50,656 nt of DNA, from NCBI GenBank assembly GCA_037446075.1, contig JBBIJH010000003.1, positions 1 through 50,656 of the forward strand, in the 5' to 3' direction. Below are positions 38,157 to 43,895 of this stretch, one piece after another; position 1 is the stretch's first letter; every line of letters begins with the position of its first letter. Both the position numbers and the translations under genes were made by a program. Source of the DNA: Ignavibacteriales bacterium (GTDB lineage: Bacteria > Bacteroidota > Ignavibacteria > UBA10030 > JAHEZR01). The notes under the pieces are model-generated. The model was not told the DNA's origin, searched no databases, and saw nothing but the letters and a program-made list of their open reading frames with translations.

Positions 38157-39800
38157 CTAGGTAGATGAGCCCGGTTCACTCTGGCTCTCGCCTGAAATGA
38201 TTCGACGTCTCTCCTCAAGCAGGCGATGGAAACTCTGCTTGAGATCTTTTGATTTCTTCACCATCACCTCAAAGTGTTCCCGAGGAACAGCAAGAACGTC
38301 GACAGATGTAGCAGAGCGGACAATGGCCCGACGTACGTGCGCCTCGTCAAGAATAGCCATCTCGCCAAAGTATTCGCCCGGCCCGAGCGTGGCCAGAAGC
38401 TGCTCTTTCCCATCAGAGGCAAACTCAAGGACTTCGACTTCGCCTTGATCGATAATGTAGAACCGGTCCGCGGGGTCGCCAGGCCAGACGATGATCTCCC
38501 CCGGCTCGAAGTGGGCACGACTGATGGGCTGCGCTCGAGAGAATCGATACTGGACAATGTCTCTGGGGAAAAGAAGATCAAGCGTCCAGTCCATCATGAC
38601 GCGAATCTTTCGATTCAATCCTGGCAACTTCATGAGGTATATCGTCCGCCAGAGCCACCACGCTACAAAGCCCGAGATTTGGAGTCCAAGAATCTGTGCA
38701 ACCGCACTCCGCTTCCCAACCGTCGCAAGCTGGCCAAGTCCGGTGAAGGTGAATGGCTTCTGAAGCTTTCCTCGAATCGAGGCCAGGATGTTTCTCGCCG
38801 TCGTCTTCGGCTGTCGCATGGCAAACTGCGCCATCGGCGGATATGGTTTTCCGGTCTTCGGGTTGATGAGACTCGCATTATCACCAAGAGCCCAGACACC
38901 CTCGTAACCGGGAACCTGCAGGAACTCGTTTACGATGATCCGGGCCTTGTGGTCCTTCCTGCAAGCAAGCGTGCCGATGACAGGATTTGCTCGAATGCCC
39001 GCCGTCCAGACGAGGGTTCGTGTAAGAACGGCTGTCTCATCGTCAAGCCTGATGCGGTCTTCCTCCGCCTCAAGAAGAGAACAACCCAAGCGAATCTCCA
39101 CGCCGTCGCGTTCCAGCTTCTTCTTCGCATATTGACCAAGCCGTTCTGGCATTTCAGGCAACAGCCTTGGCCCGGCTTCCAGCAGGAGAATTCGGAGCTC
39201 TGACGGGTGCAGACGTGAGTGAAACTTCACGGCGTCGTGCAGCAGGCCCGTGATTTCCCCCACTGTTTCCACGCCCGTCAATCCACCGCCAGCGACAACA
39301 AAGGTTAGCAGCGCCTTTCTCGCTTCCGGGTCATCCTCTAGATCTGCGTCGTCAAGCTGGCCAAGGACGTGATTACGGATCTGGATTGCATCGGAAAGCG
39401 TCTTCAGTGTGAGGCCATATTTTGCCACACCCGGGACCATGGACGTGTCCGTGACGCTGCCGAGTGCTAGGACAAGATAATCGAAGGTGAAATGATGGTT
39501 GTGACGCGGAAATCCGTGTGCAACGGTGACACGCCGATTCACAAGATCAATGGACTGAACATCGGCAGTACAGAATCGCGTGCGGCGAAGGAGATGCCTG
39601 ATAGGATTGACGATGTGCCGAGGGTCGAGACTCCCCGACGCCACCTCGGGCAGCATCGGCTCGAAGACGAAGAAGTTCTCTTTGCTGACGAGCGTGACGG
39701 TGAAGTCGTCTGAGCGCCGGAGAGCTTTTTCTAACTCTAACGCGGTGTAAACACCGGCGTATCCTCCGCCGAGGATGAGGATGTGGGGTTTATGTTCCAA
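38157..39800 (-). CDS. ndh: Type II NADH dehydrogenase (NDH-2) fused to a C-terminal cyclic-nucleotide-binding domain
   Basis: 547 aa with a TTG start; TAA lies two codons upstream, so no alternative start exists. Rossmann motifs ILGGGYAGV and VVAGGGLTGVE. The C-terminal ~120 aa are CAP-type cNMP-binding (RFYIIDQGEVEV, GEYFGEMAIL, RRAIVRS). Confidence 0.9.
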   Translation of the reverse strand: MEHKPHILILGGGYAGVYTALELEKALRRSDDFTVTLVSKENFFVFEPMLPEVASGSLDPRHIVNPIRHLLRRTRFCTADVQSIDLVNRRVTVAHGFPRHNHHFTFDYLVLALGSVTDTSMVPGVAKYGLTLKTLSDAIQIRNHVLGQLDDADLEDDPEARKALLTFVVAGGGLTGVETVGEITGLLHDAVKFHSRLHPSELRILLLEAGPRLLPEMPERLGQYAKKKLERDGVEIRLGCSLLEAEEDRIRLDDETAVLTRTLVWTAGIRANPVIGTLACRKDHKARIIVNEFLQVPGYEGVWALGDNASLINPKTGKPYPPMAQFAMRQPKTTARNILASIRGKLQKPFTFTGLGQLATVGKRSAVAQILGLQISGFVAWWLWRTIYLMKLPGLNRKIRVMMDWTLDLLFPRDIVQYRFSRAQPISRAHFEPGEIIVWPGDPADRFYIIDQGEVEVLEFASDGKEQLLATLGPGEYFGEMAILDEAHVRRAIVRSATSVDVLAVPREHFEVMVKKSKDLKQSFHRLLEERRRIISGESQSEPGSST

Positions 39801-39806
39801 TCGTTA
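39721..39806 (-). repeat. Direct repeat copy A: the functional 5' end of ndh (stop-N3-TTG plus the first ~27 codons)
   Basis: Reverse strand: TAA CGA TTG GAA CAT AAA CCC CAC ATC CTC..., encoding MEHKPHILILGGGYAGVYTALELEKAL. Confidence 0.8.
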
Positions 39807-40007
39807 TGTACGAGCGGAAAAGCAGTAAGCTCTGGGTGTAAGATACAAATAACAAATTTTCTTGGGAGTAATTGCTTTCAGTCATCGGGAACTTCTCTTT
39901 CAAGCGCAGCATAAAATCTAACTACAAATCAAGTGTGACCAAGTGGAAAGTAATCTGTTTGGGAAGGGACGCTTGATCGGAAGGGCAATGAAAGCGGGGT
40001 GATCTCC

Positions 40008-40266
40008 TCAGTACGTTGTGCTGGTTCTTCGTGAAACACGAAACACATGAACTATTCGCTTGGGCGTGATCACCTCGTAAAACACTCTGTAAGAGCCGAC
40101 GCGGCGACGCCAGACGTCCTCCTTCGCCGTGCATTTTTTCGATGTCACCTGCGTAGGGATTGAAAGCCATACCATCGATTGCATCCAGAATCCGCTTTGC
40201 GTCGTTGCTGGGGAATTTCCTGAGTTTCCTGAGAACCGAAGGGTCAACGCGTAATTCCCACCTCAC
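40008..40266 (-). pseudogene. RelE/ParE-family toxin gene disrupted by a 1-nt insertion
   Basis: The N-terminal frame reads MRWELRVDPSVLRKLRKFPSNDAKRILDAIDGMAFNPYAGDIEKMHGEG. The canonical C-terminus DVWRRRVGSYRVFYEVITPKRIVHVFRVSRRTSTTY continues in the +1 frame. The junction is near GGAGGA (40113-40128). Confidence 0.75.
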
Positions 40267-40474
40267 GCTCGATTTCGTCTACAGTGAGATACTTGCCGGA
40301 TGACAGATTCTTCCGGGCTTTCTTGAGTGCTTTCTTCTCGGAAGGTGAGGGATCAAAGGTACGCAGAGACTTGACGCGTTTGAGCCATGCAATATATGCC
40401 TCATACTCATCCCGGGGGACTGCGACGAGTTCTTTTTTCCTAACAGCAGAGCGTGGTATGGAAATCGTGGTCAT
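40244..40474 (-). CDS. Putative antitoxin (Phd/YefM-like) of the RelE-type module
   Basis: 76 aa, upstream of and overlapping the toxin start by 23 nt. ELVAVPRDEYEAYIAW resembles the Phd/YefM core. Confidence 0.55.
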   Translation of the reverse strand: MTTISIPRSAVRKKELVAVPRDEYEAYIAWLKRVKSLRTFDPSPSEKKALKKARKNLSSGKYLTVDEIEREVGITR

Positions 40475-40560
40475 TCAAGATTCTCCTTCCGCATGATGGG
40501 TTGTTGTCAATAATACTACGCATTACCATCCACAAAATCAAACAGTCTTGTTTCAAAGCC

Positions 40561-40646
40561 GCCAACCTTTTCTCAAGCTCAAGCGCGGTGCAGACTCTAT
40601 CATATCCGCCGGCGGGGATGAGGATGTGGGGGTGTTCCAACGGCTA
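40561..40646 (-). repeat. Direct repeat copy B: decayed ndh 5' end
   Basis: Reverse strand: TAG CCG TTG GAA CAC CCC CAC ATC CTC..., encoding MEHPHILIPAGGYDRVCTALELEKRL. About 17 of 28 aligned codons encode the same residue as copy A, and the GxGxxG motif is destroyed. Confidence 0.75.
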
Positions 40647-40705
40647 GACACAACTCCCTACGAAATGGGGTCAGGGATGTTTGCAGGGTTGAAATAGATA
40701 CATCG

Positions 40706-41608
40706 CTACTCCTCCGTAAAGTAGTCGGAATCTATTTTCTTAATCTCATAGGTTGCAACCGGGCTGACACCCACACTATGATCGATCATGAGTTGAGCAA
40801 GCTGCTCTCCATCGATAAGGACAATCTTGCTGTCAATCCGTGTTGCGTAATCATAGGCTTCGCGAGAAAAGTCAGACGTTGTGATGAAAATCCCTTTCTT
40901 TGCCCTTTGCCCCTGAAGAGCACCAGCAAATTTTTGAATCTCTGGACGACCGACCGTGTTCTCCCAACGCTTGGCTTGAACGTAAATGATATCCATTCCA
41001 AGCCGGTCCTCTTTGATTATTCCATCAATTCCCTCGTCTCCGCTTCTGCCGATTGCTTCACCTGCATCCTTCCTAGTGCCACCGTATCCCATTTTCACCA
41101 GGAGTTCAACAACGACCCTTTCGAAGAGGCTGGGAGGACTCGATTTGATCTGCTGTAGCAGTTCGTTCACAAGATTCGCCTTTATGCTCTGGAAGGCCTT
41201 CTCCAGTACCTCCTCCGGCGTCTCCTCCGGAGCCCTTCCCTCTCGCGTTTCCTCGGTTGCTCTCCTAAGAGCTCTAAACTCTTTGAATTCTATGAACTGA
41301 TCCAGAAATTCCACATTGATCTCCAGAGGATTCTGGGCTAGAACCTTGAGACCTCTCTCGGTTATTTTGTAATAGCCTCGCCTAGTGGACTCAAGGAGAC
41401 CAGCTTTTTTCATGTACGTCCTTGCCCACCCGACGCGATTGTCAAAAACGGCCTGCTGACCGCTCGGTAGAAGCTGTCGGCGCTCCTCATCCGAGAGCTT
41501 AAAGCCTGTTGCAAGAGCCTCAATGGTCTCACGCAGTGAGTGTTCGTGCTGATCGCTCGCGTACCTCAGGAGAGGAAGCATTATAGATTCATAATCGGGA
41601 ATGGCCAT
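40706..41608 (-). CDS. mrr: Mrr-family restriction endonuclease (Mrr_N winged helix + Mrr catalytic domain)
   Basis: 300 aa with IPDYESIMLPLLRYASD...NRVGWARTYMKKAGLLES (Mrr_N). Catalytic region GDEGIDGIIKEDRLGMDIIYVQAKRW. GGAGG lies before the ATG. Confidence 0.9.
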   Translation of the reverse strand: MAIPDYESIMLPLLRYASDQHEHSLRETIEALATGFKLSDEERRQLLPSGQQAVFDNRVGWARTYMKKAGLLESTRRGYYKITERGLKVLAQNPLEINVEFLDQFIEFKEFRALRRATEETREGRAPEETPEEVLEKAFQSIKANLVNELLQQIKSSPPSLFERVVVELLVKMGYGGTRKDAGEAIGRSGDEGIDGIIKEDRLGMDIIYVQAKRWENTVGRPEIQKFAGALQGQRAKKGIFITTSDFSREAYDYATRIDSKIVLIDGEQLAQLMIDHSVGVSPVATYEIKKIDSDYFTEE

Positions 41609-41696
41609 GGCAGATAAACCTCCTTAGGCCTTCTTAACCGAAGGTTTAGGAAAAATGATATGTTAGCTACAGTTCTGAAGCCTTGGATCACCTGCC

Positions 41697-41754
41697 GTAT
41701 CTCGCGCGATAGCAGACCGAAATCAATGGCGGATGTGGGGGCGTCCAAAGGTTA
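41697..41754 (-). repeat. Direct repeat copy C: most degraded ndh 5' remnant
   Basis: Reverse strand: TAA CCT TTG GAC GCC CCC ACA TCC GCC... It retains stop-N3-TTG and the CCCCCACATCC core, with an internal deletion and a frame change. Confidence 0.6.
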
Positions 41755-41795
41755 CAAAGAACACGGGCGTTTTGATTTCGGCATGCTTCTCTTTG

Positions 41796-41828
41796 GTTAC
41801 TTTCTCTTGCACGTCAAGAGAAAGTAAC
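41796..41828. repeat. Perfect 14-bp inverted repeat (hairpin) with a 5-nt loop
   Basis: GTTACTTTCTCTTG-CACGT-CAAGAGAAAGTAAC. There is no flanking T- or A-run on either strand. Confidence 0.8.
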
Positions 41829-41901
41829 AAACATGCACATGTCCGAAACAGATTGCTTCACCCCGACAAATCGGGATTCACAAGGACATAATGCTCGGTT
41901 G

Positions 41902-43845
41902 TTAGTCACCTTTTCCCCATTTCCTCTTCAAATACTTCGTCAACCCACCCGCGAGCAGCATCTCCACCTTCCGCTTTGAAAGGGCGTGTGTTAGTCGGTA
42001 GTTCTCGTTCCGTGTCAAATTCTTCAGGACAATCTCCTTTCCTTTCTCAAGCGCGTCTCGGAGTCCTTCGATGAGCAATCGGTCGCCCTGCTTGATCTTT
42101 CCATGATCATCAGGATTCACGAACCTCAGTGGCGGAATCCCAAAGTTCACGAGGTTTGACTCATGAATCCGAGCAAAGCTCTTCGCGATGATCACTTTCA
42201 CACCGAGGTACATCGGTGCAATTGCCGCGTGTTCGCGGCTCGAGCCTTGTCCCCAGTTCTCCCCGCCAACCACGAACCCTCCGCCCTTCTCTTTCGCCCG
42301 CTTCGGGAATGTTTTGTCAACGTACGCAAATGTCCACTCGCTGATTGCCGGAATGTTTGAGCGAAGCGGTAGAACGTTGTTCCCGCCCGGCAGGATGTGG
42401 TCTGTCGAAATGTTGTCTCCAAGCACCAGTAGCACCTCACCTTCGACTCGGTCGGGCACAGGCTGGGCTGGTGGAGGTGGCACGATGTTCGGCCCTCTGA
42501 GCACTTCAACATTGTCCCCGTTTTTTGCTGGGGGTAAGAAGTCCGCTGTGTACAGCTCATACTCTTCCGGCTCTTCAATTCTCGGCGGGTCGCCTAACCG
42601 TCGTGGGTCAGTAATCTTCCCGTAGATTGCCGTCGCGACCGCGGTCTCGGGACTGCAAAGCCACACGCGGTCATCTTCTGTGCCGCTGCGTCCTTTGAAA
42701 TTCCGATTGAACGTCCGCACGCTGTTCCCGAACGATGGCGGCGCCGCTCCCATTCCTATGCATGGGCCACACGCCACTTCGAGTGCGCGGACACCTGCCT
42801 CCATGAGGTCTTTGAACGCACCGGTGTTCATTATATTAATGAGAATCTGCCTTGACCCAGGGGAGAGTGTCATGTGCAGGCCGGGAGCAACGTGTTTTCC
42901 CTTGAGTGCTCTGGCTACAATCATAAGGTCGCGGTACGAGGAATTCACTGAGGAACCAACTGCAACCTGTCGTACCTCTGTCCCTTCAACTTCTCTCACG
43001 GGCACAACATTGTCCGGACTCCATGGCTTTGCGATGAGCGGTTCGAGCTTCGAGAGGTCAATCGTGATCTCATCATCATACTTTGCATGAGGGTCGGGTC
43101 CACCTGGCCTCCAATCGTTCTCTCGTTTCTGTGCTTTGAGGAACTTCCTCGTCATCTCATCTGAAGCGAAGAGACCCGACGTTGCACCAAGCTCTTGCGT
43201 CATATTGCAAATTGTTGCTCGTTCATAGACGCTCATCCTTGCAGCGGCCGGCCCGACGTACTCCATCACTCTGTTGATGCCACCTTTCACCGTCAGTCGT
43301 CGAAGCAACTCAAGGATCACATCCTTTGCTGAGACCCATGGCTGGAATTCGCCGATCAGGTTGACTTTCACGACCTTCGGCATGGTGACGTAGAAAGGTT
43401 CGCCAGCCATTGCCGCCGCGACTTCGGCACCGCCGGCACCGATTGCCAGCATGCCCATGGCGCCCGCGGTGCACGTGTGGCTGTCGGAGCCGAGGAGCGT
43501 CTCGCCAGGCACATCGAATCGCTCGAGGTGTGCGAAGTGACTGATTCCATTTCCCGCACGGGAAAAAATCGCACCGTACTTCTCTGCCATCGTTTGGAGG
43601 AAAAGATGGTCGTCGGCGTTCTCGTAGCTCGTCTGGAGGATGTTGTGATCGACATACGTGACGCTAACGCGGTTCTTCACGCGCGGGATGCCGAACTCCT
43701 CAAATTGCATCCACACCATTGTGCCCGTCGCGTCTTGGACGAGCGTTTGGTCGATGCGGATACCGATTTCCTCGCCTGCTTTCATCGTGCCGTCAACGAG
43801 GTGCGAGCGGATGATTTTGTGTGTGAGTGTTTCGCCCACGCTCAT
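41902..43845 (-). CDS. Aconitate hydratase (~650-aa single-chain aconitase family)
   Basis: 647 aa counted from ATG 43845; the track ORF begins at TTG 43851. Contains LLGSDSHTCTAGAMG and CGPCIGMG cluster-ligand regions, plus a C-terminal swivel domain GENWGQGSSREHAA. Confidence 0.9.
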   Translation of the reverse strand: MSVGETLTHKIIRSHLVDGTMKAGEEIGIRIDQTLVQDATGTMVWMQFEEFGIPRVKNRVSVTYVDHNILQTSYENADDHLFLQTMAEKYGAIFSRAGNGISHFAHLERFDVPGETLLGSDSHTCTAGAMGMLAIGAGGAEVAAAMAGEPFYVTMPKVVKVNLIGEFQPWVSAKDVILELLRRLTVKGGINRVMEYVGPAAARMSVYERATICNMTQELGATSGLFASDEMTRKFLKAQKRENDWRPGGPDPHAKYDDEITIDLSKLEPLIAKPWSPDNVVPVREVEGTEVRQVAVGSSVNSSYRDLMIVARALKGKHVAPGLHMTLSPGSRQILINIMNTGAFKDLMEAGVRALEVACGPCIGMGAAPPSFGNSVRTFNRNFKGRSGTEDDRVWLCSPETAVATAIYGKITDPRRLGDPPRIEEPEEYELYTADFLPPAKNGDNVEVLRGPNIVPPPPAQPVPDRVEGEVLLVLGDNISTDHILPGGNNVLPLRSNIPAISEWTFAYVDKTFPKRAKEKGGGFVVGGENWGQGSSREHAAIAPMYLGVKVIIAKSFARIHESNLVNFGIPPLRFVNPDDHGKIKQGDRLLIEGLRDALEKGKEIVLKNLTRNENYRLTHALSKRKVEMLLAGGLTKYLKRKWGKGD

Positions 43846-43895
43846 TAGCAAGAGAAATTGTTCATTGCTTCACCGCTCCATTTCACGGACAATCC

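What the first reader, a model, noticed from the sequence alone, without database searches (positions are those of the whole stretch)
39721..41754. Three direct, progressively decayed copies of the ndh 5' end bracket a TA cassette and an Mrr cassette
The functional ndh start region is stop-N3-TTG plus about 27 codons (39806-39721: TAA CGA TTG GAA CAT AAA CCC CAC ATC...). It recurs at 40646-40561 as TAG CCG TTG GAA CAC CCC CAC ATC..., encoding MEHPHILIPAGGYDRVCTALELEKRL with a ruined GxGxxG. It recurs again, more degraded and internally deleted, at 41754-41697 (TAA CCT TTG GAC GCC CCC ACA TCC...).

Between copies A and B lies only a RelE-type toxin-antitoxin pair. Between B and C lies only an Mrr restriction endonuclease.

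This looks like the footprint of serial site-specific insertions into the 5' end of ndh. In that model each incoming element supplies a replacement 5' end and pushes the old one outward, with C oldest and A current. No integrase or recombinase remains. The locus could be a small, layered defence or addiction-gene hotspot, with cassettes of about 0.75 and 1.05 kb that would have to be mobilised in trans.
Basis: partly seen in the sequence, partly recalled or inferred. Interest (0 to 1): 0.7.

Follow-up and report, generated by a model that had tools for sequence, protein, structure and literature searches.

The report
Two ndh-start copies, not three
A broken toxin-antitoxin pair sits between two copies of the first ~95 bases of the ndh gene, in a gene gap whose contents differ between related bacteria. 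The claimed third copy is part of an unrelated dispersed repeat, so this is an old insertion scar of a known kind rather than a layered site-specific cassette system.

Summary
Copies A (functional ndh start) and B (orphan, decayed) are real. They form a ~95-nt direct repeat that brackets only a ParE/RelE-type toxin-antitoxin pair, and the toxin is frameshifted.

Copy C is not an ndh relic. It lies inside the loop of a ~150-nt structured repeat, which I call E. E also occurs with the same internal sequence at unlinked loci in other metagenomes, and the "TTGGACGC" of C forms part of a conserved helix of E.

Eleven related contigs show that the aconitase-to-lemA gap varies:
- no ndh at all;
- ndh alone (empty site);
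- E + an unknown 106-aa gene + ndh;
- E + Mrr + a decayed ndh stub with no intact ndh;
- the window: E + Mrr + stub B + TA + intact ndh.

So the gap is a variable slot that collects defence and addiction genes. There is no series of three insertions into the ndh 5' end, no integrase, and no recurrent use of an ndh attachment site.

The best reading is a single old insertion of the TA cassette, accompanied by duplication of about 95 nt of target. This matches the "insertion with long target duplication" described for restriction genes. Mrr is an independent, older insertion next to E. The result is a new member of a known kind, of modest interest.

The parts
41902..43851 (-). Aconitase gene, the left border of the variable slot
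   Evidence: Pfam Aconitase + Aconitase_C. It is syntenic in L002, L004, L006, L008-10, L017 and L020.
41837..41901 (-). Native sequence 3' of aconitase, with a small hairpin (AATCCCGATTTGTCGGGG) followed by GAAGCAATCTG
   Evidence: Shared with L004 and L017, and with the cassette-free locus L020 (86-95% over 43-44 nt). It therefore predates the insertions.
41690..41836 (-). Dispersed structured repeat E. It has hairpin 1 (41796-41828), a long stem (GCCGAAATCAA / TTGATTTCGGT) and an inner helix.
   Evidence: Copies occur at unlinked loci: L014/L016, L012 and the L002 lemA-htpX spacer. Copies also follow aconitase in L004, L017 and L018. The consensus structure has compensatory pairs. No Rfam family matches.
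40706..41608 (-). Solitary Mrr (Type IV) restriction endonuclease gene, intact
   Evidence: Mrr_N 1.6e-34 and Mrr_cat 1.4e-37. The same gene follows E at this locus in L017 and L018, at 77-79% aa identity.
40647..40705 (-). Remnant of the native aconitase-ndh spacer hairpin, upstream of B
   Evidence: Matches the L006 native spacer (p=0.024) and the region after Mrr in L017 (p=0.004).
40548..40646 (-). Copy B: an orphan, decayed ndh 5' end running from -6 to about +66..+87. The GxGxxG motif is ruined and there is a 3-nt deletion.
40244..40474 (-). Antitoxin gene (76 aa)
   Evidence: The ORF overlaps the toxin start. It has no Pfam or NCBIfam hit. It matches 166 full-length representative clusters at E<=1e-3.
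40008..40266 (-). ParE/RelE-family toxin pseudogene, with a frameshift near 40112-40122
   Evidence: The two reading frames, when joined, match PF05016 over residues 7-81 at 2.1e-8. The longest single frame matches only residues 42-74.
39807..40007 (-). Tail of the TA cassette. It is AT-rich (43% GC) and is now the upstream region of ndh.
   Evidence: It has no similarity to the native spacers or to the sequence upstream of B, and no match in any relative.
39714..39806 (-). Copy A: the duplicated segment at the start of the functional ndh
   Evidence: All five of its differences from the ortholog consensus within the compared 50 nt are synonymous.
38157..39800 (-). Intact ndh: a type II NADH dehydrogenase with a C-terminal cyclic-nucleotide-binding domain
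   Evidence: Pyr_redox_2, NDH2_C and cNMP_binding. Orthologs are 76-83% identical at the protein level.

Best explanation
The gap between aconitase and lemA is a variable slot in this uncultured lineage, and the window holds two independent, old insertions.

**First insertion.** A solitary Mrr gene lies directly 3' of a copy of the dispersed structured repeat E. Both sit between the aconitase terminator and the native hairpin upstream of ndh. Two other lineages share this arrangement.

**Second insertion.** A ParE/RelE-type TA cassette of about 740 bp was inserted at the 5' end of ndh. About 95 nt of the target, from -6 to roughly +87 relative to the TTG start, was directly duplicated.
- The downstream copy (A) stayed joined to the gene body, so ndh remained intact. 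It is now preceded by cassette sequence and has changed only at synonymous sites.
- The upstream copy (B) stayed joined to the native upstream spacer. It lost its function and decayed neutrally.
- The toxin was later inactivated by a frameshift.

**Shown versus inferred.** The anatomy, the homologies, the empty sites and the identity of C are shown. The duplicative-insertion mechanism and the order of events are inferred. The enzymology is unknown, as it is for published cases of long target duplication.
For: **The A/B repeat.**
- It is real, and it is single-copy at the empty sites L002, L004, L006 and L020.
- The insert carries only the TA pair and no mobility gene.
- The TA region has no counterpart in any relative.

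**B is the original copy.**
- Sequence upstream of B matches the native spacer. Sequence upstream of A does not.

**Both copies look host-derived.**
- B keeps ndh homology for about 60 nt past the shared core.
- A and B share the TTGGAACA leader, whereas the leaders of L002, L004, L005 and L006 all differ.

**The decay pattern fits one old duplication.**
- Within the compared 50 nt, A has 5 changes from the ortholog consensus, all synonymous.
- Over the same 50 nt, B has about 13 changes, including non-synonymous ones, plus an in-frame 3-nt deletion in the leader just upstream of that stretch.

**Foreign origin of the inserts.**
- The inserted genes are 43-52% GC, against 55.5-55.8% for aconitase and ndh.

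**C belongs to repeat E**.

**Precedent.** Insertion of restriction genes, including a lone Type IV gene, with direct target duplications from about 45 to over 400 bp and no mobility gene is documented (PMC2853133).
Against: - No relative carries Mrr plus an intact ndh without the TA cassette, so the exact pre-insertion state was not observed. The closest empty sites are about 17% diverged in aconitase.
- A-B identity is uneven. The first 25 nt match 24/25 and the next 50 nt match 32/50. The scan-corrected p-value is 0.027. A simple duplication followed by uniform decay does not predict this. It would need a later gene-conversion patch, or it may point to a recombination core.
- The published definition of long target duplication required restriction and modification genes in the insert. 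Here the insert is a TA pair.
- The mechanism behind such duplications is unknown.
Confidence: 0.5

Rival explanations
1. Site-specific integration, which is the first reader's model reduced to one event. A TA-carrying element with an ndh-5'-like attP integrated at a core within CCCCACATCCTCATCC. It supplied the new start of ndh and later lost its integrase and other genes.
For: - An identical 16-mer, or 24/25 nt counting the start, is flanked by arms of about 64% identity. This unevenness has p=0.027.
- Islands that replace the 5' end of dusA and leave a remnant 5' end are a documented precedent (PMC4482086).
Against: - There is no integrase in the island or its neighbourhood.
- Cargo in L004, L017 and L018, and the window's own Mrr, lie upstream in the spacer, not at this core.
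- The long homology (about 60 nt) lies on the side that does not restore the gene.
- A and B share a lineage-specific leader.
- The cassette is only about 740 bp, and no copy of it was found in relatives or plasmids.
Confidence: 0.15
2. Disruption then repair. The TA cassette first inserted inside ndh at about +87 and broke it. An intact 5' end was later regained by one-sided (homology-facilitated illegitimate) recombination with DNA from a sister chromosome or a close relative, leaving B as the old stub.
For: - ndh is dispensable in this clade. It is absent in L008-L010 and reduced to a stub in L017 and L018.
- ndh stubs next to Mrr arise repeatedly.
- Sequence upstream of A is unrelated to the native spacer.
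Against: - It needs two rare events where one would do.
- No lineage shows the disrupted intermediate.
- The left end of A's homology (-6) would have to fall by chance just upstream of the start codon.
Confidence: 0.15
3. Three serial insertions into the ndh 5' end, with C the oldest. This is the finding as written.
For: C resembles B at 21/25 nt.
Against: - C is internal to repeat E, which is present with the same motif at unlinked loci. C forms part of a conserved helix of E.
- The orthologous segment in L004 shows no significant similarity to ndh.
- C against A scores at background.
Confidence: 0.03

Closest known systems
Insertion with long target duplication of restriction(-modification) genes (Nobusato et al. 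2000, cited from memory; Furuta, Abe & Kobayashi 2010, PMC2853133)
   Same: - A small block of selfish or defence genes with no mobility gene.
- Direct repeats longer than 30 bp flank it, and both align to a single copy at the empty site of a related genome.
- Lone Type IV genes are among the published cases.
   Different: - The cargo flanked by the repeat here is a TA pair, not a restriction system.
- The repeats are old and diverged (73-76%), not near-identical.
- The comparison is between lineages about 17% apart in aconitase, not between strains of one species.
dusA-specific integrase islands, which replace the 5' end of dusA (Farrugia et al. 2015, PMC4482086)
   Same: - Insertion at the 5' end of a housekeeping-type gene that stays intact.
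- A remnant 5' end is left upstream.
- A short identical core is shared by the two copies.
   Different: - No integrase is present here.
- The repeat is about 95 nt, with homology on the non-restoring side, against a 21-bp att consensus.
- The site is not used recurrently in relatives.
- The cargo is under 1 kb.
REP/REPIN-type dispersed palindromic repeats with RAYT transposases (from general knowledge)
   Same: - Element E is a short, structured, intergenic repeat found at several unlinked loci.
- One relative (L004) encodes a protein with an IS200-like Y1 transposase signature.
   Different: - E is about 150 nt with three helices, not a single 20-35-nt palindrome or a simple doublet.
- Copy number per genome is unknown.
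- No RAYT is present in the window.
Defence-gene hotspots between conserved core genes (from general knowledge)
   Same: Conserved flanks (aconitase and lemA) with variable defence or addiction cargo (Mrr, TA, an unknown gene, or nothing) across relatives.
   Different: - The slot is very small, holding 0-3 genes.
- The metabolic gene ndh is itself variably present within it.

Membership tests
Insertion with long target duplication | The insert is flanked by direct repeats longer than 30 bp | tested here: met
   A and B span about 95 nt. They match at 76% over 63 ungapped nt and share an identical 16-mer.
Insertion with long target duplication | Both repeats align to one copy at an empty site in a related genome | tested here: met
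   B and A both align to the single ndh 5' end of L002, L004 and L006. L020 is a cassette-free version of the same spacer.
Insertion with long target duplication | No transposase, integrase or other mobility gene in or beside the insert | tested here: met
   Only the antitoxin and toxin ORFs lie between B and A. The neighbours tested are housekeeping genes.
Insertion with long target duplication | The insert contains restriction and modification genes (Furuta 2010 screening criterion) | tested here: not met
   The insert is a ParE/RelE TA pair. Mrr lies outside the A/B repeat.
Integrase-mediated island replacing a gene's 5' end (dusA type) | A tyrosine integrase gene at one end of the island | tested here: not met
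   No such ORF lies between 39.8 and 41.9 kb. Nearby genes have no recombinase domains.
Integrase-mediated island replacing a gene's 5' end (dusA type) | A short conserved att core as imperfect direct repeats at both ends | tested here: inconclusive
   An identical 16-mer is present and identity is uneven (p=0.027). Homology extends about 60 nt beyond it on the non-restoring side.
Integrase-mediated island replacing a gene's 5' end (dusA type) | The same att site is occupied by different islands in relatives | tested here: not met
   Cargo in L004, L017 and L018 lies upstream in the spacer. The other relatives are empty.
Integrase-mediated island replacing a gene's 5' end (dusA type) | Excision to a circle with restoration of attB | not testable with these tools
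   Needs PCR or read-level data.
Type II toxin-antitoxin, ParE/RelE superfamily | A small antitoxin gene directly upstream of, and overlapping, a toxin with the ParE/RelE fold signature | tested here: met
   The joined toxin frames match PF05016 at 2.1e-8. The 76-aa upstream ORF overlaps the toxin start and has 166 related representative clusters.
Type II toxin-antitoxin, ParE/RelE superfamily | An intact toxin reading frame | tested here: not met
   The N- and C-terminal halves are in different frames, switching near 40112-40122. A sequencing error cannot be excluded.
Mrr Type IV restriction endonuclease | Mrr_N winged-helix domain plus Mrr_cat PD-(D/E)xK domain, full length | tested here: met
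   Matches of 1.6e-34 and 1.4e-37 cover residues 6-91 and 157-274 of 300 aa.
REP/REPIN-like dispersed repeat (element E) | The same structured sequence at several unlinked intergenic sites | tested here: met
   Found after aconitase in the window, L004, L017 and L018. Also found at L014/L016, L012 and the L002 lemA-htpX spacer. These contexts are unrelated.
REP/REPIN-like dispersed repeat (element E) | A cognate RAYT (Y1 transposase) in the same genome | tested here: inconclusive
   L004 orf208 has a weak Y1_Tnp hit (5e-4, below the Pfam cut-off) with HUH-like and Y motifs. There is no homolog in the window.
Integron-type cassette array | attC sites between cassettes, with or without an IntI integrase | not tested
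   No attC model was available. By inspection, the repeats are a gene fragment (A/B) and element E, which lacks the RYYYAAC/GTTRRRY ends.

The most novel reading that the evidence does not exclude
Element E might be more than a passive repeat. It could be a new structured recombination site or non-coding RNA that marks where single-gene cargo is exchanged.
- Mrr in the window, L017 and L018, and orf106 in L004, follow E at the same place after aconitase.
- The window and L004 diverge immediately after E's 3' end (...GCAGGTG).

A related possibility is that the unusually conserved 25-nt start of the A/B repeat is a core for cassette capture catalysed in trans.
Probability: 0.08. Interest if true: 0.6.

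Novelty: new member of a known kind. Interest (0 to 1): 0.3.

Why it matters
This finding does not show a new mobile system. Three points remain useful.

- **A method caution.** A short resemblance to a gene start (C) was in fact part of a dispersed repeat. The three-layer story depended on it.
- **A TA example of a known scar.** It adds a toxin-antitoxin case, from an uncultured FCB-type lineage, to the poorly understood phenomenon of gene insertion with long target duplication. That phenomenon has been described so far for restriction systems.
- **A small natural series of haplotypes.** The aconitase-lemA gap occurs empty, with ndh, with E plus cargo, with an ndh stub, and with the TA insertion. 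Denser sampling could use this series to study how small defence and addiction genes enter and erode core-genome gaps.

Tried and rejected
**1. C as a longer (~66-nt) decayed ndh fragment.** I thought its end, GATACGGCAGGTG, matched the GYAGV codons. Rejected, because that stretch is the conserved 3' part of repeat E.

**2. A second copy of the lemA promoter/leader after B.** This would have implied a tandem ndh-leader duplication or re-acquisition of ndh.
- An alignment by eye looked good, and pairwise p was 0.012 against the window's own leader only.
- A profile of 7-8 lemA leaders found the true leader (E 3.6e-10) but not 40475-40560, even at E<=100. Dropped.

**3. B closer to relatives' ndh than to A, as evidence that A or B is foreign.** The identity matrix shows only that B keeps ancestral states while A has five derived synonymous changes. 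That also fits plain duplication.

**4. Recent allele import shown by a rise in window-L004 identity at the 3' end of aconitase.** No such rise is present.

**5. A known RNA family for E or the spacer.** None was found at gathering or permissive thresholds.

**6. tRNA or tmRNA targets.** None are present in the window.

**7. Other copies of the TA cassette.** Relatives and plasmids gave no match.

**8. Promoter and terminator scans.** Uninformative.

**9. Whether the ndh stubs in L017/L018 and B come from one deletion.** The junctions differ: about +57 joined to the lemA leader in L017/L018, against about +87 joined to the TA cassette in the window. I treat them as independent events.


Full report
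**Layout**

All relevant genes are on the minus strand. Read in the direction of ndh, the order is:
- aconitase (43851-41902);
- Mrr (41608-40706);
- copy B (40646 to about 40548);
- the antitoxin (40474-40244);
- a ParE/RelE toxin (40266-40008);
- a 200-nt AT-rich tail;
- ndh, which begins with copy A (TTG at 39800).

ndh is a type II NADH dehydrogenase with a C-terminal cyclic-nucleotide-binding domain. Mrr has both of its domains and is full length.

The toxin is split between two reading frames near 40112-40122. The joined halves match PF05016 across the whole domain at 2.1e-8, whereas either frame alone covers only part of it.

The antitoxin has no Pfam or NCBIfam model. It does have 166 full-length related representative clusters, so it is a real small-protein family.

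The window has no tRNA gene and no Rfam match. None of the neighbouring genes I tested encodes a recombinase.

**Copies A and B**

These are real.
- They match at 76% over 63 ungapped nt.
- They share the TTGGAACA start and an identical 16-mer, CCCCACATCCTCATCC, found nowhere else in the window.
- B also matches the ndh 5' ends of relatives at 85-86% over 64-66 nt.

Within the compared 50 nt, A has five differences from the ortholog consensus, all synonymous. Over the same 50 nt, B has about thirteen changes, including the ones that destroy GxGxxG. B also has a 3-nt deletion in the leader just upstream of that stretch.

The 60 nt upstream of B still resembles the native aconitase-ndh spacer of L006 (p=0.024) and the region after Mrr in L017 (p=0.004). 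The sequence upstream of A resembles neither those nor the sequence upstream of B.

B is therefore the original 5' end in its original context. A is the copy attached to the gene body, and it is now preceded by cassette sequence. The repeat runs from about -6 to about +87.

**Copy C**

C resembles B over 25 nt (21/25 with one gap).
- Against B it scores above background: p about 5e-4 with a strict scoring scheme and about 0.01 with looser ones.
- Against A it scores at background.
- The orthologous segment of L004 shows no significant similarity to ndh.

The decisive result came from a metagenome scan with a 22-nt motif taken from the spacer. The surrounding ~150 nt is a dispersed structured repeat, which I call E.

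Copies of E at unlinked loci carry the same internal sequence...CGTTCATCATAGCCTTTGGACGCGTCCGCCTCGCATCCGCTATCGATTTCGG...:
- L014 and L016, which lie beside an outer-membrane-type gene;
- L012, which lies beside small membrane proteins;
- the L002 lemA-htpX spacer, whose copy has a different, longer loop.

In the consensus fold, the TTGGACGC of C pairs with CGCGTTC in an inner helix. Hairpin 1 and the long stem both show compensatory changes. C is therefore an intrinsic part of E, not an ndh relic.

The window's E copy is slightly shortened in a way that happens to create CCCCACATCC. I cannot tell whether that is chance or a small conversion patch from ndh.

**Relatives**

The lineage is sparsely sampled, and its members are about equally distant from one another. 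Aconitase is 82.6-83.2% identical at the nucleotide level in all pairs, and third codon positions are about 57% identical.

| Contigs | Content of the aconitase-lemA gap |
|---|---|
| L008, L009, L010 | 140 nt only, no ndh |
| L002/L003, L006 | ndh preceded by a spacer of about 90-105 nt |
| L005 | ndh, next to an aconitase remnant |
| L020 | ndh preceded by a 270-nt spacer |
| L004 | E, an unknown 106-aa gene, then intact ndh |
| L017, L018 | E, Mrr (77-79% aa identity), a decayed ndh stub of about 50-60 nt, then the lemA leader |
| Window | E, Mrr, stub B, TA, intact ndh |

L020 matters because it carries the same native terminator hairpin as the window, L004 and L017, but no E and no cargo. 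It therefore marks the empty site for E plus cargo.

In every occupied relative, the cargo lies upstream of the native hairpin, not at the ndh 5' core. The TA region has no counterpart anywhere.

**What follows from this**

It is not a stack of three insertions into an ndh attachment site. Mrr and E form one older unit that is shared with two other lineages. Only the TA pair is bracketed by ndh 5' copies.

For that single event I favour duplicative insertion, for four reasons:
- both repeats align to one copy at the empty sites;
- the insert carries no mobility gene;
- B keeps ndh homology well past the shared core;
- A and B share a start leader that differs between lineages.

This matches the published pattern of "insertion with long target duplication". 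That pattern is known for all restriction types, including lone Type IV genes, and its mechanism is unknown (PMC2853133).

The integrase alternative has a clear precedent in the dusA islands. Those replace the 5' end of the gene and leave a remnant (PMC4482086). Here, however, there is no integrase, the site is not reused in relatives, and the extended homology lies on the side that does not restore the gene.

One observation still favours the integrase model, or else a later gene-conversion patch. The first 25 nt of the repeat match 24/25, while the next 50 nt match 32/50 (scan-corrected p=0.027).

A third possibility is disruption of ndh followed by recombinational repair. It is viable because ndh is dispensable in this clade.

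**Age**

B has diverged by about 26% and the toxin is broken. The insertion is therefore old and shows no sign of current mobility.

**Verdict**

This is a new example of a known kind of insertion scar, located in a small variable slot. The structured repeat E is the most interesting loose end.

Noticed in passing
window 41690-41836 (-); L004 6849-7001; L017 434-586; L018 1-80; L014 2852-2996 (-); L016 ~700-850; L012 655-798 (-); L002 12940-13140 (-): A dispersed structured repeat of about 150 nt (E), with a 13-14-bp hairpin, a long stem (GCCGAAATCRA / TYGATTTCGGT) and an inner helix. It has compensatory pairs and no Rfam match. Between the window and L004 it is 85% identical, although neutral sites are only about 57% identical. 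It is therefore either constrained or recently spread.
   Followed up: partly
L004 107-733 (+): A 208-aa ORF with a weak IS200-like Y1 transposase hit and HUH-like (NHVHGII) and YFEHIIRNE motifs. It looks like a REP-associated tyrosine transposase and may be the partner of E. It is absent from the window.
   Followed up: partly
L008 9938-10079; L009; L010: Relatives with about 90% identical aconitase have no ndh at all, with aconitase followed by lemA after 140 nt. ndh is therefore itself a variable occupant of this gap.
   Followed up: partly
L017 1577-1723; L018 1090-1209: In two lineages, Mrr is followed by a decayed ndh 5' stub of about 50-60 nt joined directly to the lemA leader. This is an independent deletion of ndh next to Mrr. 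Both contigs stop at the same point.
   Followed up: partly
window 39773-39800 versus 40616-40640: The first 25 nt of the A/B repeat are almost identical (24/25), while the next 50 nt are 64% identical (p=0.027 after scan correction). It could be a conversion patch or a recombination core. This is unexplained.
   Followed up: partly
window 40112-40122 (-): The ParE/RelE toxin is frameshifted while the antitoxin is intact, so this is a degenerating TA module. A sequencing error is not excluded.
   Followed up: yes
L005 1120-1500: Aconitase is reduced to an N-terminal 68 codons plus its last ~100 nt. This is an internal deletion or an assembly artefact, directly upstream of ndh.
   Followed up: no
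L004 7060-7380 (+): A 106-aa ORF with no family match occupies the place that Mrr holds in the window, starting about 60 nt after the 3' end of E.
   Followed up: partly
L016 ~785-832 versus L014: The same E copy in two samples differs by an insertion of about 47 nt, itself a hairpin, between hairpin 1 and the long stem.
   Followed up: no
window 38157-38530 (-): This NDH-2 carries a C-terminal cyclic-nucleotide-binding domain. Thousands of homologs across many phyla share this architecture.
   Followed up: no
one search hit list: This Mrr family is 71-79% identical at the protein level across very different phyla (Bipolaricaulota, Brocadiaceae, Chloroflexota, Thermodesulfobacteriota). Most copies are on very short contigs, which suggests wide horizontal spread into regions that are hard to assemble.
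   Followed up: no
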